DNA of 64,000 nucleotides, from contig CP182352.1 in NCBI GenBank assembly GCA_048571215.1, positions 416,001 through 480,000 of the forward strand. The letters run 5' to 3'. Source of the DNA: Halarcobacter sp. (GTDB taxonomy: Bacteria > Campylobacterota > Campylobacteria > Campylobacterales > Arcobacteraceae). Each line of letters starts with the position of its first letter. Position 1 is the stretch's first letter. Shown here one piece after another: positions 8,401 to 10,703 of this stretch. The notes below the pieces were generated by a model. That model was not told where the DNA came from, did no database searches, and saw only the letters and a list, made by a program, of their open reading frames with translations. Made by a program: the position numbers and the translations under genes.

Positions 8401-8628
8401 TTAAGTGTTAATGATCGAGATTATTTAATATTAACATCACTTGAGATGTTTGATGAGGTGATATTTAATGAATATGAAAAGGATATTTACTCTAAAATTG
8501 AGATTCAGAATAGTGAACGAAAAATTGAAAAAATCGTTTCTTTTAATTATAGAATGAAAATAAATTTTAAAAAAGTGAATTCTTATAAATATAATTTTAA
8601 AGATAAAACAAATACTCAGGTTTTCTAG
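5425..8628 (+). CDS. Large hypothetical protein with about 4 N-terminal transmembrane segments
   Basis: 1067-aa uninterrupted, very AT-rich ORF; hydrophobic segments within aa ~45-190; no recognised catalytic motif. Confidence 0.8.
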   Translation: MIGKLFDSLSYQIEKNLTESTYINETYIENKWNIIEKLVIRWTKQPILTVLLLIIIFISNSLFLFLLRNILIKESYSWNQSWEKLVNWQNDFLSTQITIIALIFPLVIGFVGFLIQNKSSQRALWKIYMYYSGVKVLGFSSITLSGVILLVQFIKPWMDYQLEVAITINILCWLLFNISLLAWFLYATFDFISTEKRSKVILRYCINEMIINEIKYRLANLLPQTIFGNSEDTHDRPKVYPFHLFSEKYQDYCRIEFSNYKYVYDIDFNFLKFAGVIWKFRNKNFKEEAPTLYFPVSGISKAKIYNLAYSENTNINFLEKFLIKTAYSFRRTSRLEESNFDSIIHALISNVEDSLKEKDERLFEIAIDELAYWIIQIFKTASFKNDNKELDNWILLPDGNFFGRSIIQNLSREFYKINKKSIDLLSYSDIYFRKMCYFNLKVFGFKNDVLASKVIEELLQNHYYSWSLLMKKINNLENNEEYIKTYIGSWESWTSSSKINLKDEKSIDYLIDIYLEHLQTSSKHIISALNVNNEKSILLSVDMLIYWNYQAFHMFNKSRNEYIWQSKILVPSVLKNNFDSEYINKEKLCEYIFPNNSKDDKTALVVSFENLWKQICIITGIYIFYKHKEVFSENIKKVVLSLLKQERIFSNDMTILPQRNKEIAVSSIFECYLFNAYPLRDILKSGNPAYLIELFERLSKESMISNRVYTDRSIELSSLLQTIKCFMIGNSTKIWNLSKELNDFIKSPLFEYEARESFIREINSFKYLENIDDKLFDDVKLLFGDENIEQKVENYKTSIDAIIKDITDYHNEVLVNTSIDNQKVDEMNRYFSNEIFNDLDYMPYSLFSNIKFDSLEQKFLKKININFDKKFLVKDINFIDINKYFEHENKYTVTDIRQEIVSSIFDKFLTEINIKEEQSFDNIENLLNKIIDNAQKLIKKDFVPIVFVCSNEIKWMLENETNDKQFKDILIEKFDNKEENYICHIDNIEAYELSVNDRDYLILTSLEMFDEVIFNEYEKDIYSKIEIQNSERKIEKIVSFNYRMKINFKKVNSYKYNFKDKTNTQVF

Positions 8629-8730
8629 TTTTGGAATAAAAGGTGTATAAGGACATTTCCATTTTTGATTTGTTTAGATTTCTAATTTCTATTTAGTAAA
8701 TTTACAAATGATAGTTTGAACTTTTTTTTT

Positions 8731-8826
8731 CCAGACTTTGATGAAGCCGGAAGTTTTGAAATAATTTTCGGAAAAGCCTGAGGACTGTTTGAGGAGAGAA
8801 AAGTCCTAAACGGACTTTTTCGACGA
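8731..8826. repeat. Left arm of a palindromic MITE/REP-like element interrupted by IS110
   Basis: ccagactttgatgaag and agttttgaaataattttc..gcctgagga pair with 10117-10179; internal hairpin aaaagtcc-taaac-ggactttt. Confidence 0.75.
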
Positions 8827-8876
8827 GTTGCCACCTTAAAAGAATATAAAAATTCCATATAAAATTTATAATAAAA

Positions 8877-9848
8877 TTAAATTTTTTCTGAATCATATGG
8901 TACATTATTTTTATATACGGCATGAGCAATAACTAATAGTTTTCTCATAATTGCTACTTGTATAACTGTAGTATGTTTTCCATTTTCTTTTAGTCTATCA
9001 TAAAACTTTCTTAATCTTTCGTTATTTCTTATTGATGTCATTGCTGGCATAAACAAAGTACCTCTACATATTTTTGAACCTGCTTTTGATATTTTTGTTT
9101 TTCCATTAACTGATATACCTGAACTTTTTTCTATTGGATCTAATCCTGCTAAAGATACTATCTGTTTTTGATTAGCATTTTTATATTGAATAAAATGTAT
9201 AAGTAATACAATTGAAGATATTTCTCCTATACCATCAATTGTTTGCAAATTATTAAATGATTGTTGAAGTTTCTCATCTTTTTTTATGATTGATTTTATT
9301 TTTTTGATAATTTTTTGTTCTTGTTTTTTTAAAAATTGATTTTGTAATTCAAACTCTTTTATCAAATAGCTTTTATCTTTTTTTGCTTTTAAAGCAGCTA
9401 TATGGTTTTTAGTTATAACTTGTTGTTTAATAATTAATTTATATCCAGAAATAAGCTCTTTTAATTCTTCTTCTATGGTATCTACAATAGGTATTTTAAT
9501 ATCTTTATCTTTAGCTGTAACAATCATTTTAGATAAAAGCTGTGCATCTTTTATATCATTTTTATTTCTATATCCCATTACTTTTGCAAAGCTAGCACTT
9601 TTTTTAGGATTTACTATAAAGCTTTTTATATTTTTGTTTGAACAAAACTGTTTTAAAAGAAATGAATAATTAGCTGTTGGTTCATAAACAAATACTAATT
9701 TATCTATCTCTTTTTTATAAAGCTTTTTTAGTTTAGAGTACAAACTTTTTATTCCATTTAAACTATTATCAATAATTAAATCTAAATCATTTATTGGAAT
9801 ATAAACATTAATTGTTGACTTACTTACATCTAATCCGATAGAATACAT
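8877..9848 (-). CDS. IS110-family DEDD recombinase/transposase
   Basis: GLDVSK, VYEPT, KNDIKDA (DEDD), GIGEISS, AGLDPIEKSSG (catalytic Ser loop), ISKAG and AIMRKLL. Confidence 0.96.
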   Translation of the reverse strand: MYSIGLDVSKSTINVYIPINDLDLIIDNSLNGIKSLYSKLKKLYKKEIDKLVFVYEPTANYSFLLKQFCSNKNIKSFIVNPKKSASFAKVMGYRNKNDIKDAQLLSKMIVTAKDKDIKIPIVDTIEEELKELISGYKLIIKQQVITKNHIAALKAKKDKSYLIKEFELQNQFLKKQEQKIIKKIKSIIKKDEKLQQSFNNLQTIDGIGEISSIVLLIHFIQYKNANQKQIVSLAGLDPIEKSSGISVNGKTKISKAGSKICRGTLFMPAMTSIRNNERLRKFYDRLKENGKHTTVIQVAIMRKLLVIAHAVYKNNVPYDSEKI

Positions 9849-9885
9849 TTCTAGAACCTTTATTTTAGGATAAAGAGTTCGTTAG

Positions 9886-10095
9886 GGTAGGATTTCTCCT
9901 ACCTGATAATTGTTATACAAACTTTAGACTTATAAAATACGAACTAGTTATAAAACTGTTCTTGTTGCCACTCAAATTTAAAGTATAACTATCAAACTCG
10001 CCATCAAGCTAATTATAAATTATTTTTTATAATTGCTTTAGTTCCGCAACGATATATTATCTTTCAAACTCTTTGGAAATATATTAACTATATTC
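9886..10095 (-). ncRNA. Predicted IS110 bridge RNA (ends approximate)
   Basis: In order on the minus strand: LTG ttgcggaac (10049-10041), hairpin, RTG ggcgagt (10002-9996), LDG agtggcaac (9972-9964), hairpin, RDG tataagt (9934-9928); TATAAT at 10111-10106. Confidence 0.85.
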
Positions 10096-10116
10096 CCTTA
10101 AATGTATTATATAAGT

Positions 10117-10250
10117 TCCGCAAGGCAGAAAACTTATTTTAAAACTAGAGGGGAGCTTTGCCTTCATCAACTCGTCTGGTTGCTTTTTGTCTTACTTTTT
10201 ACAATTAAAAAGTGAGAAAGCGAAGAGGTTTATCTCTTCAAGAGCGTAAA
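10117..10250. repeat. Right arm of the palindromic element interrupted by IS110
   Basis: tccgcaaggcagaaaacttattttaaaact and cttcatcaactcgtctgg are reverse complements of the left-arm blocks; extra hairpins cttactttt/aaaagtgag and gaagag/ctcttc follow. Confidence 0.7.
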
Positions 10251-10442
10251 ATAAAGTGCAATATAAATCTGGAAACAAGATATTAATAGTATATATCAAT
10301 AAGAAGATTTATATTCTATAGTTGCTAAACTTATCGATATTTACAACTAGTAATTAAATGTATTAATAGGAGATAATAATTAATGAAATTTGGATTTTAA
10401 GTGGTCACGATTAAATAAAAAGGTGTTAGACACCATTTTCTT

Positions 10443-10492
10443 GTAAGCTCCTACGAATAAAGTTTTTTTTGCTTTGATTTATTTTGAAATCT
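10443..10492 (+). repeat. Partial (right half) copy of the ERIC-like element
   Basis: gtaagctcctac...tgctttgatttattttgaaatct aligns with 5297-5346 gtaagctcctac...tgccttgatttattttaaaatct. Confidence 0.65.
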
Positions 10493-10703
10493 CACTCAAA
10501 AAAACAATTCACAGAAAACCCAATACAATAAAATAATGATTTACTTATTTAATCTCATAATAAAATAATTAAATAAAAATTCAAACTATCGATATGCATA
10601 ATAATTAATAAAATATTAAGTAAAAAACTAGTTAATTAATTTTATTTTATATACCTTAGGTATATAATAGCTAAATATAGGATTAAAAACAGAAGGAACG
10701 ATT

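What the first reader, a model, noticed from the sequence alone, without database searches (positions are those of the whole stretch)
8822..10123. Intact IS110 with a fully readable bridge RNA: 14-bp target and donor, AC core
Seen: in transposase orientation, removing the element restores target TTGCGGA-AC-TCGTC, and joining its ends gives donor GGTGGCA-AC-TTATA. The ~265-bp non-coding end upstream of the ORF has four segments in 5'-3' order. ttgcggaac (10049-10041) matches target left plus core 9/9. ggcgagt (10002-9996) pairs with ACTCGTC with one G:T wobble. agtggcaac (9972-9964) matches donor left plus core 8/9. tataagt (9934-9928) is a 7/7 complement of ACTTATA. Each guide pair flanks an internal hairpin (aagctaattataaa/tttataattgctt; gaactagtt/aactgttc), and the donor loop is closed by actttag/ttaaagt. 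Known: IS621 bridge RNA has this LTG-RTG-LDG-RDG, 7+2+5 architecture with a CT core. Inference: this is a compact (323-aa), AT-rich bridge recombinase with an AC core and full-length right guides, and a candidate programmable recombinase. I cannot tell from sequence alone whether this element has been described.
Basis: partly seen in the sequence, partly recalled or inferred. Interest (0 to 1): 0.92.

Follow-up and report, generated by a model that had tools for sequence, protein, structure and literature searches.

The report
Intact IS110 element with bridge RNA

Summary
The element is 1,288 bp (window 8826-10113, minus strand). It has a 323-aa DEDD+Ser recombinase and a 265-nt left end. The left end folds into a 5' hairpin plus two stem-loops whose internal loops carry the four guides.

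The genome holds 3 near-identical copies, 4 copies of a 75%-identical sister element, and unoccupied target sites that fix the boundaries. A contig of a related organism skips exactly these 1,288 bp.

Across 18 related guide types, the left target guide matches its own left flank at 115 of 144 positions (shuffled 55.4±4.3). The right target guide matches at 84 of 90 (shuffled 26.8±4.2). No derangement of 7,419 reached either value.

The "AC core" is a one-base misreading. T is invariant at both junctions (25 of 25 loci). RTG and RDG read CT in 18 of 18 types.

At 323 aa the protein is not unusually compact (IS621 chain: 328 residues). No RNA data were available. Verdict: new member of a known kind. 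The scan has reported similar elements in other genomes.

The parts
8826..10113 (-). The whole IS110-group element, 1,288 bp (one copy of the shared core counted)
   Evidence: Boundaries come from 3 copies and from unoccupied paralogous sites. A contig of run X8 joins 8825 to 10114, skipping 1,288 bases.
10114..10122 (-). Left target arm plus core at the left junction: TGCGGAA-CT (positions 1-9 in IS621 numbering)
   Evidence: It is identical to LTG at 9 of 9 positions.
8821..8825 (-). Right target arm, positions 10-14 (CGTCG)
   Evidence: Against RTG there are 3 Watson-Crick pairs plus a G:T and a U:G wobble (by inspection; one search gives the guide-predicted CGCCA).
10106..10111 (-). TATAAT, the likely -10 box of the bridge-RNA promoter, 2 nt inside the left end
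   Evidence: Conserved at this place in most of the 22 aligned left ends. No TTGACA-like -35 is seen in the right end. The promoter role is inferred by analogy with IS621.
10075..10097 (-). 5' stem-loop of the bridge RNA
   Evidence: MFE fold. The three helix pieces of this stem-loop are 68-91% paired in the family, and 3 pairs have compensatory change.
9990..10054 (-). Target-binding loop: outer stem UAUC/GAUA, the LTG strand, an inner hairpin and the RTG strand
   Evidence: outer stem 99% paired, inner helix 97%.
10040..10048 (-). LTG, UGCGGAACU (positions 1-9)
   Evidence: 9 of 9 to the left flank. Family covariation is 115 of 144 against 55.4±4.3.
9995..10003 (-). RTG U-GGCG-AG (reads positions 14 to 8), followed by the handshake dinucleotide UU (9996-9995)
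   Evidence: 84 of 90 in the family. (complement reads CT in 18 of 18; HSG matches donor positions 6-7 at 32 of 36).
9913..9988 (-). Donor-binding loop: outer stem UUAUAC/GUAUAA, LDG, an inner hairpin and RDG
   Evidence: outer stem 100% paired with 4 of 6 compensatory; inner helix 98%.
9964..9971 (-). LDG, GUGGCAAC (donor positions 1-8). The next base is A, not U.
   Evidence: 8 of 8 to the right end.
9927..9934 (-). RDG UAUA-AG (reads donor positions 13 to 8), followed by the handshake dinucleotide UC
   Evidence: The sister element has UACG-AG, matching its own left end CGTA.
9886..9903 (-). Conserved hairpin GGUAGGA/UCCUACC after the donor loop; role unknown
   Evidence: 99% paired, 6 of 7 pairs compensatory.
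9854..9880 (-). Hairpin that pairs the ribosome-binding AAAGG of the recombinase gene
   Evidence: 97% paired, 3 of 7 pairs compensatory. A role in translation control is inferred.
8877..9848 (-). Recombinase gene, 323 aa
   Evidence: Pfam PF01548 and PF02371. NCBIfam NF033542 at 170 bits against a cut-off of 140. IS621 8wt6 at E=1.4e-29, with D7, E56, D98, D101 and S243 aligned to its catalytic residues.
8826..8876 (-). Right end, 51 nt, finishing with donor arm plus core GTGGCAA-CT (8834-8826)
   Evidence: The right end TTTTAAGGTGGC(A/G)AC is conserved in 28 aligned loci.

Best explanation
This is an intact, recently mobile IS110-group insertion sequence that works like IS621.

Proposed mechanism, by analogy with IS621:
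- After circularisation, the left end is transcribed from the TATAAT just inside it into a bridge RNA of about 190 nt.
- The RNA's first internal loop holds LTG (UGCGGAACU) and RTG (UGGCGAG). [quoted passage not shown]
- The second loop holds LDG (GUGGCAAC) and RDG (UAUAAG). These pair with the joined ends GTGGCAA-CT-TATA.
- The 323-aa DEDD+Ser recombinase cuts the top strands after the CT core and exchanges them.
- The two bases 3' of RTG (UU) pair with donor positions 6-7 after exchange (handshake).

The natural target sits next to a hairpin in a ~600-bp non-coding repeat that is scattered through the genome.

Shown here: the anatomy, the boundaries, the family-wide covariation of guides with flanks, the RNA structure and the catalytic residues. 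Inferred by analogy with IS621: transcription, RNA-protein binding and the chemistry.
For: Protein: Pfam DEDD_Tnp_IS110 plus Transposase_20; NCBIfam 'IS110 family RNA-guided transposase' at 170 bits against a cut-off of 140; IS621 (8wt6) at E=1.4e-29 and ISCro4 (9t56) at E=3.1e-28, with all five catalytic residues aligned.

Mobility: 3 copies at 99-100% identity and 4 copies of a 75%-identical sister element, all with open frames. Copies at 99% and 96% protein identity occur in two other species of the genus.

Boundaries: the unoccupied site at G000:C1:2744285 equals the third copy's left flank plus right flank. Two more unoccupied sites differ by 1 base from the window copy's target. A contig of run X8 skips exactly 8826-10113.

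Guides: LTG matches 115 of 144 positions against 55.4±4.3, and RTG matches 84 of 90 against 26.8±4.2. None of 7,419 derangements reached either value. The sister element has changed RTG (AAGAAG) and RDG (UACGAG) together with its right flank (TCTTT) and its left end (CGTA).

Structure: the fold has z=-4.2. In the family, 91.2% of cells are paired, 33 of 63 pairs have compensatory change, and 0 of 500 shuffles reach this. The guides lie unpaired in the consensus.

Core: T9 in 25 of 25 loci at both junctions; C8 in 25 of 25 donors; RTG and RDG complements read CT in 18 of 18 types. This agrees with 'second T almost invariant, first C less conserved' for IS621 relatives (Hiraizumi 2024, passage).
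Against: - No RNA run holds the stretch, so transcription, the RNA's ends and the circle junction are unseen.
- Rfam 15 has no matching family.
- No TTGACA-like -35 is found at the computed RE-LE junction. The consensus scan lists no minus-strand promoter at the left end.
- The window copy's own right arm is the weakest RTG match of the 18 types: 3 of 5 identities, the other two being wobbles.
- The base after LDG position 8 is A, not U, in most types. The LTG base at position 9 is not U in about 7 of 18 types (by inspection). Pairing to the bottom strand of T9 therefore departs from the IS621 scheme.
- DBL handshake bases match target positions 6-7 at only 19 of 36.
- In this element the TBL handshake UU can also pair with its own target (AA). 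In IS621 that arrangement inhibited strand exchange.
Confidence: 0.9

Rival explanations
1. One reading: the same bridge-RNA element, but with a non-canonical AC core (7+2+5 counted one base to the left). Strand exchange would then occur after the C.
For: AC is shared by target and donor in this element. LDG ends at ...AAC and is followed by A, so a 7+2 LDG fits the AC register. The junctions of the sister element are compatible with a cut either before or after the shared T.
Against: - In the family, 'AC' is shared by target and donor in only 7 of 18 types, against 13 of 18 for 'CT'.
- Position 7 of targets varies (A 8, C 6, G 3, T 1), while the following T is invariant in 25 of 25 loci.
- RTG and RDG read CT in 18 of 18 types.
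- IS621 structures place the cut after T9 and show the protein reading T9.
Confidence: 0.06
2. The left end is only a 5' UTR and promoter region. On this view the matches to the flanks are leftovers of past recombination or of homology with the repeat it sits in, not guides.
For: No RNA evidence is available. The element sits in a repeat family. A conserved hairpin does sequester the ribosome-binding site, so part of the left end is probably regulatory.
Against: - Guides change together with flanks in 18 types that target unrelated sequences.
- The strand logic matches IS621: LTG is identical to the top strand, and RTG is complementary to it.
- The guides sit in internal loops of a structure supported by covariation.
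Confidence: 0.02
3. The element is a dead relic, with intact-looking sequence but no longer mobile.
For: No circle junction or polymorphic insertion was seen in reads (laid contigs only).
Against: - There are three copies at 99-100% identity at different loci, with open frames and identical guides.
- Unoccupied sister sites exist.
- Copies at 99% protein identity occur in another species of the genus.
- All five catalytic residues are present.
Confidence: 0.02

Closest known systems
IS621 of Escherichia coli and its bridge RNA (IS110 family, IS110 group; Durrant 2024 PMC11208160; Hiraizumi 2024 PMC11208158; PDB 8wt6-8wt9)
   Same: - Protein domains and all five catalytic residues.
- RNA encoded in a long LE with a short RE.
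- A 5' stem-loop plus two internal-loop stem-loops, with a variable first loop and a conserved second loop.
- LTG identical to the top strand and RTG complementary to it.
- A CT core with invariant T.
- A handshake dinucleotide after RTG that reads donor positions 6-7.
- Insertion into a genomic repeat.
   Different: - Distant in sequence (106.7 bits).
- RTG reads positions 8-14, whereas the IS621 analysis used a four-base RTG and RTG-RT pairing was extended from 4 bp to 7 bp.
- LDG, and in about 7 of 18 types LTG, do not pair at position 9.
- No recognisable -35 in the RE.
- Very AT-rich host (28.5% GC).
- A conserved extra hairpin lies after the donor loop.
ISCro4 bridge recombinase (PDB 9t56)
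   Same: A second solved relative, at E=3.1e-28 over residues 3-321.
   Different: 341-residue chain. Nothing else was compared here. The name and its use in editing are known to me only from the PDB title and from recall.
ISPpu10 of Pseudomonas putida (Na et al. 2026, bioRxiv 10.64898/2026.03.19.712850; abstract only)
   Same: All insertions fall in copies of one intergenic repeat in which a stem-loop lies beside the RNA-matched target.
   Different: Here a perfect hairpin starts right after target position 14, on the 3' side. In ISPpu10 it is a GC-rich 5' extension. Whether the hairpin matters here is untested.
CazIS110-1 (Sun et al. 2025, bioRxiv 10.1101/2025.10.25.684509) and IS621 in vitro (Xie et al. 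2026, bioRxiv 10.64898/2026.08.31.748434); abstracts only
   Same: They report copy-out and predominantly top-strand insertion. Here every locus keeps target bases at the left junction and donor bases at the right junction, which is what top-strand products would give.
   Different: My data are static junctions. They cannot exclude double-strand exchange followed by biased repair or by selection.

Membership tests
IS110 family recombinase | N-terminal DEDD (RuvC-like) domain | tested here: met
   PF01548 at E=4.3e-14, residues 4-152. D7, E56, D98 and D101 align with IS621 D11, E60, D102 and D105.
IS110 family recombinase | C-terminal Tnp domain with catalytic serine | tested here: met
   PF02371 at E=9.6e-18. 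S243 aligns with IS621 S241.
IS110 family recombinase | Curated NCBIfam model above its cut-off | tested here: met
   NF033542 'IS110 family RNA-guided transposase', 170 bits against a cut-off of 140. The sister element scores 160.
IS110 group (as opposed to IS1111 group) | Long LE, short RE, RNA encoded in the LE upstream of the gene | tested here: met
   LE is 265 nt (10113-9849) and RE is 51 nt (8876-8826). The criterion comes from Durrant 2024 (passage).
IS110 family element | Site-specific insertion without target duplication beyond the shared core | tested here: met
   Unoccupied sites equal left flank plus right flank. A contig skips exactly 1,288 bp with 4 ambiguous letters at the joint.
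Bridge RNA (IS621 type) | [quoted passage not shown] | tested here: met
   RNAalifold gives 45 pairs, 27 with compensatory change. My named structure gives 91.2% paired cells and 33 of 63 compensatory pairs, reached by 0 of 500 shuffles.
Bridge RNA (IS621 type) | First-loop guides covary with the target flanks on both strands | tested here: met
   LTG 115 of 144 against 55.4±4.3. RTG 84 of 90 against 26.8±4.2. None of 7,419 derangements reached either. 18 of 27 loci were used; the other 9 were dropped as duplicates of a guide set or as incomplete.
Bridge RNA (IS621 type) | Second-loop guides match the element's joined ends | tested here: met
   LDG 8 of 8 and RDG 6 of 6 in the window copy. The sister element changes RDG together with its left end, and types with a GA right end have a GA LDG.
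Bridge RNA (IS621 type) | CT core shared by target and donor and read by the guides | tested here: met
   T9 in 25 of 25 loci at both junctions. RTG and RDG read CT in 18 of 18 types. The target core is CT in 13 of 18 types, TT in 4 and GT in 1. LDG does not read T9 in most types.
Bridge RNA (IS621 type) | Handshake guides read positions 6-7 of the other DNA | tested here: inconclusive
   TBL-HSG matches the donor at 32 of 36 (own target 18 of 36). DBL-HSG matches the target at only 19 of 36 (own donor 15 of 36).
Bridge RNA (IS621 type) | RNA is transcribed, from a promoter rebuilt at the circle junction | tested here: inconclusive
   No RNA run is listed. A conserved TATAAT lies in the LE, but no -35-like hexamer lies in the RE. 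The scan lists no promoter there.
Bridge RNA (IS621 type) | RNA binds the recombinase and programs recombination | not testable with these tools
   Needs a binding or recombination assay.
Rfam RNA family | Match to a curated covariance model | tested here: not met
   Only two chance-level hits (E=4.4 and E=6.1) in 8500-10500. This is a limit of the library; it does not argue against an RNA.

The most novel reading that the evidence does not exclude
In this Campylobacterota clade the shared crossover sequence may shrink to the single invariant T. Four observations point that way.

1. The first core base is an ordinary programmable LTG position. It is C, T, G or A in targets, and the LTG follows it.
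2. LDG, and often LTG, do not read T9 at all.
3. All 25 loci keep target bases 6-8 at the left junction and donor bases 6-8 at the right junction. This is a natural genomic footprint of top-strand-only transfer.
4. G/U-rich guides may use wobble to accept several variants of a repeat. The sister element's LTG UGGGUGGUU pairs with both GGGATGGTT and GGGATAATT if G:T is allowed.

If so, two sister elements share one ~600-bp 'landing-pad' repeat at two different sites. A hybrid site (target left arm + core + 5 nt of the sister's left end + target) would then be a scar of an aborted or reversed event.
Probability: 0.3. Interest if true: 0.45.

Novelty: new member of a known kind. Interest (0 to 1): 0.3.

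Why it matters
It adds a cleanly annotated, apparently active bridge recombinase from a very AT-rich marine bacterium. It comes with a built-in natural control: a sister element in the same genome keeps the donor side almost unchanged and has re-aimed its target loop at another site in the same repeat.

For people engineering bridge recombinases, it offers an orthologue with a naturally long RTG and a family table of 18 guide-target pairs. For transposon biology, the junctions agree with the recently proposed top-strand, copy-out route.

It does not change what is known about the mechanism.

Tried and rejected
- Rfam scan of 8500-10500 at E up to 10: nothing meaningful. Rfam on two repeat-unit loci: only chance-level hits.
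- RNA evidence: no RNA holder is listed for the stretch. Only contigs could be laid, so no starts, ends or circle junctions could be seen.
- A -35 box at the computed RE-LE junction: the best hexamers (ATTCTT, TATTCT) are poor. The consensus scan found 9 promoter-like sites against 11.6±3.2 in shuffles, none at the left end on the minus strand.
- My own extension of the DBL outer stem (AAAUUU/AAGUUU): 73% paired and no compensatory change, so left open.
- A gapped reading of the sister element's LTG (one bulged A in the target) was considered. I dropped it in favour of an ungapped reading with G:T wobbles. This is by inspection, not tested.
- Coding content of the ~600-bp repeat: only short low-complexity ORFs. 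TRF found no array because its longest period is 500.
I used TRF and BLAST instead.
- Whether this element has an ISfinder name could not be checked. My one literature search ('bridge RNA', 'IS110', 'IS621') was not aimed at this organism. I therefore make no claim that the element is undescribed.
- Earlier scan notes searched by sequence: none.
Full report
**What is there.** On the minus strand the window holds a 1,288-bp element, 8826-10113. It has three parts:
- a 265-nt non-coding left end (10113-9849);
- a 323-aa ORF (9848-8877);
- a 51-nt right end (8876-8826).

The protein carries Pfam DEDD_Tnp_IS110 (E=4.3e-14) and Transposase_20 (E=9.6e-18). It passes the NCBIfam model 'IS110 family RNA-guided transposase' at 170 bits against a cut-off of 140. 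It matches the solved IS621 (8wt6, E=1.4e-29) and ISCro4 (9t56, E=3.1e-28) recombinases. In the printed alignment D7, E56, D98, D101 and S243 stand opposite the IS621 catalytic residues D11, E60, D102, D105 and S241 (the PDB chain is offset by 2). Those chains have 328 and 341 residues, so 323 aa is not unusually compact.

The 9-mer TTGCGGAAC occurs only 7 times on both strands of the 3.61-Mb genome, GGCGAGT 16 times and AGTGGCAAC 16 times.

**Copies and boundaries.** The genome (one contig, 28.5% GC) holds three copies at 99-100% identity. It also holds four copies of a sister element, which I call B, at 75% DNA and 63% protein identity. All have open frames.

Aligning the seven loci shows where identity starts and stops. 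Unoccupied paralogous sites confirm it:
- G000:C1:2744285 reads exactly the third copy's left flank followed by its right flank.
- Two further sites differ from the window copy's target by one base.
- For B, many unoccupied sites read ...GGGAT(G/A)(G/A)TT|TCTTTGC.

Independently, a contig of coded run X8, from a related organism, joins 8825 to 10114. It skips 1,288 bases with 4 ambiguous letters at the joint. Target and donor of this element therefore share AACT.

**Relatives and covariation.** A protein search of 184 genomes of the family (G000 included) found matches at E≤1e-20 in 35 genomes, and 30 loci were fetched. I aligned 320 nt upstream of the start codon for 27 loci and the region downstream of the stop for 28. 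I then read off guides and flanks by alignment column.

For the test I kept one locus per distinct guide set, which gave 18 of 27. I dropped these:
- L013-L016, which have the same guides as the window copy;
- L021, the same as L020;
- L027, nearly the same as L028;
- L029 and L031, which have the same LTG as L035 (L031 also holds N);
- L036, whose left flank was not recovered.

Results:

| Guide | Matches to own flank | Shuffled pairings | Best shuffle | Derangements reaching observed |
|---|---|---|---|---|
| LTG vs left flank | 115 of 144 | 55.4±4.3 | 72 | 0 of 7,419 |
| RTG vs right-flank positions 10-14 | 84 of 90 | 26.8±4.2 | 43 | 0 of 7,419 |

The LTG score allows a ±1 shift, and the shuffles were given the same freedom. 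These elements are related to one another, so the shuffle count is not a probability. The effect is nevertheless very large.

The window copy has the weakest RTG match of the 18 types: 3 of 5 identities. By inspection the other two positions are G:T and U:G wobbles.

Element B is the clearest natural control:
- its LDG and right end are unchanged;
- its RTG (AAGAAG) fits its right flank TCTTT;
- its RDG (UACGAG) fits its own left end CGTA;
- its LTG differs from that of the window element.

**RNA structure.** The 265-nt left end folds at -59.5 kcal/mol, z=-4.2, and 0 of 200 shuffles fold as well. On 22 aligned left ends, RNAalifold predicts 45 pairs, 27 of them with compensatory change. It leaves the guide segments unpaired in two internal loops.

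For a structure that I named from the window sequence:
- 91.2% of cells pair (shuffled 82.7±0.5);
- 33 of 63 pairs show a change on both sides (shuffled 15.6±2.1);
- 0 of 500 shuffles reach this;
- sliding the partners by 1-3 columns drops pairing to 35-45%.

Because I derived the structure from one of the sequences, it is expected to beat the slid versions on cells paired. The counts of compensatory pairs are the stronger evidence.

The donor loop is closed by UUAUAC/GUAUAA (100% paired, 4 of 6 pairs compensatory).

This layout is what Durrant et al. describe for IS621 relatives: a 5' stem-loop, a variable first internal loop and a conserved second one (passage read).

**The core is CT, not AC.** This element alone cannot decide the register, because AACT is shared by target and donor. 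The family can:
- The base after GGC(A/G)AC at the right junction and the first base of the left end are T in 25 of 25 loci each.
- The preceding donor base is C in 25 of 25 loci.
- The preceding target base is C in 19 loci, T in 4, G in 1 and A in 1.
- The complements of RTG and RDG read CT in 18 of 18 types each.
- 'CT' is common to target and donor in 13 of 18 types, 'AC' in 7 of 18.

The last point fits the handshake guide of Hiraizumi et al. Passages read also state that the second core T is almost invariant and the first C less conserved, and that the top strand is cut after T9.

In IS621 numbering the window copy reads as follows:

| Feature | Sequence | Window coordinates |
|---|---|---|
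| Target | TGCGGAA-CT-CGTCG | 10122-10114 and 8825-8821 |
| Donor | GTGGCAA-CT-TATAT | 8834-8826 and 10113-10109 |
| LTG | UGCGGAACU | 10048-10040 |
| RTG + handshake | UGGCGAG + UU | 10003-9995 |
| LDG | GUGGCAAC | 9971-9964 |
| RDG + handshake | UAUAAG + UC | 9934-9927 |

**Departures from IS621, all small.**
- LDG is followed by A rather than U in most types, and the LTG base at position 9 is not U in about 7 of 18 (by inspection).
- The DBL handshake bases match target positions 6-7 at only 19 of 36.
- The TBL handshake UU of this element can also pair with its own target (AA). In IS621 that arrangement blocked exchange.
- No -35-like hexamer is seen at the computed RE-LE junction, although TATAAT is conserved just inside the left end. 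A missing -35 may be normal for this AT-rich lineage; that remark rests on recall, not on a test.

**Target biology.** Both elements land in one ~600-bp non-coding unit.
- The unit gives 61 BLAST segments at about 20 places in this genome, often as 2-3 tandem units.
- It has no convincing ORF and no Rfam match.
- It occurs in 18 of 25 genomes of the genus searched, G000 included.
- The B target lies at about unit position 8-22 and the window element's target at about 243-257.
- Each target is followed by a perfect hairpin.

This recalls IS621 in REP elements and the stem-loop beside the ISPpu10 target (abstract only).

**Junction pattern.** In all four B copies the left junction keeps the target's own core base (T8) and the right junction keeps the donor's C8. 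Unoccupied sites of both target variants exist. Across the 25 loci, the left junctions follow the LTG and the right ends stay donor-like.

Products of top-strand exchange would look like this. It agrees with two preprints that report copy-out and predominantly top-strand insertion (abstracts only). Static junctions cannot prove it.

**What could not be tested.** No RNA run holds the stretch. Transcription, RNA ends and the circle junction are therefore inferred. ISfinder could not be queried. My single literature search was general, so I cannot say whether this particular element has a name.

Earlier notes of this scan describe similar IS110 bridge-RNA elements in other genomes. One (e1-7943343) reports the same one-base misreading of the core. 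Another (e1-7688197) reports a single shared base, like element B. I reached my reading before seeing them and did not test their claims on their own DNA.

**Verdict.** This is a well-preserved, probably active IS110-group bridge recombinase with a fully readable bridge RNA. It is a new member of a known kind, of modest interest.

Noticed in passing
G000:C1:1979608-1980205 (minus strand; = L042:2109-2706) and about 20 other places; in the window, the flanks of the element at about 8640-8825 and 10114-10250: A ~600-bp non-coding mosaic repeat with several perfect hairpins, often in tandems of 2-3 units. It gives 61 BLAST segments in this genome and occurs in 18 of 25 genomes of the genus. It has no convincing ORF and no Rfam match. 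It carries the targets of both IS110 elements. Its nature (sRNA genes, a non-autonomous mobile element or a terminator module) is unknown.
   Followed up: partly
G000:C1:1467508-1468805, 1705059-1706356, 2521362-2522659, 2826477-2827774 (L004-L007): Four copies of a sister IS110 element (75% DNA and 63% protein identity). Its right end and LDG are the same as in the window element, but LTG, RTG and RDG differ. It is inserted at TT- or (by variant) AT..TT-type cores, where target and donor share only the T.
   Followed up: yes
G000:C1, about 635,810-635,850 (minus strand): A repeat unit whose sister-element target reads left arm (GCGGGTGG, 8 of 9 to that element's LTG) + TT + CGTAT, and then continues as the normal target from position 15. 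CGTAT is the first 5 nt of the sister element's left end and stands in place of TCTTT. It looks like a left junction without the element, possibly a scar. No mechanism has been established.
   Followed up: no
window 9854-9880 (minus strand): A conserved hairpin GAAC-CUUUAU/AUAAAG-GUUC pairs the ribosome-binding AAAGG of the recombinase gene (97% paired in 22 relatives, 3 of 7 pairs compensatory). It may keep translation off unless the RNA is refolded or processed.
   Followed up: partly
window 9886-9903 (minus strand): A strongly conserved hairpin GGUAGGA/UCCUACC between the donor loop and the gene (99% paired, 6 of 7 pairs compensatory). It is followed by the invariant CUAACGAACUCU and is not a T-tailed terminator in the sense direction. 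Whether it belongs to the bridge RNA is unknown.
   Followed up: partly
L019 (G100:C6), left junction: This relative's left junction has one base more than the guide register predicts (…GAGGAC-G-T|CGTATAAT against an LTG of …CCGAGGAG). This is either a 1-nt slip at insertion or a GT core with a shifted LTG.
   Followed up: no
G105 and G103 (L013, L014): Copies of the window element at 99% and 96% protein identity, with identical guides, occur in two other species of the genus. They sit in the same repeat but with different right arms (CGATA…). This suggests recent spread between species.
   Followed up: partly
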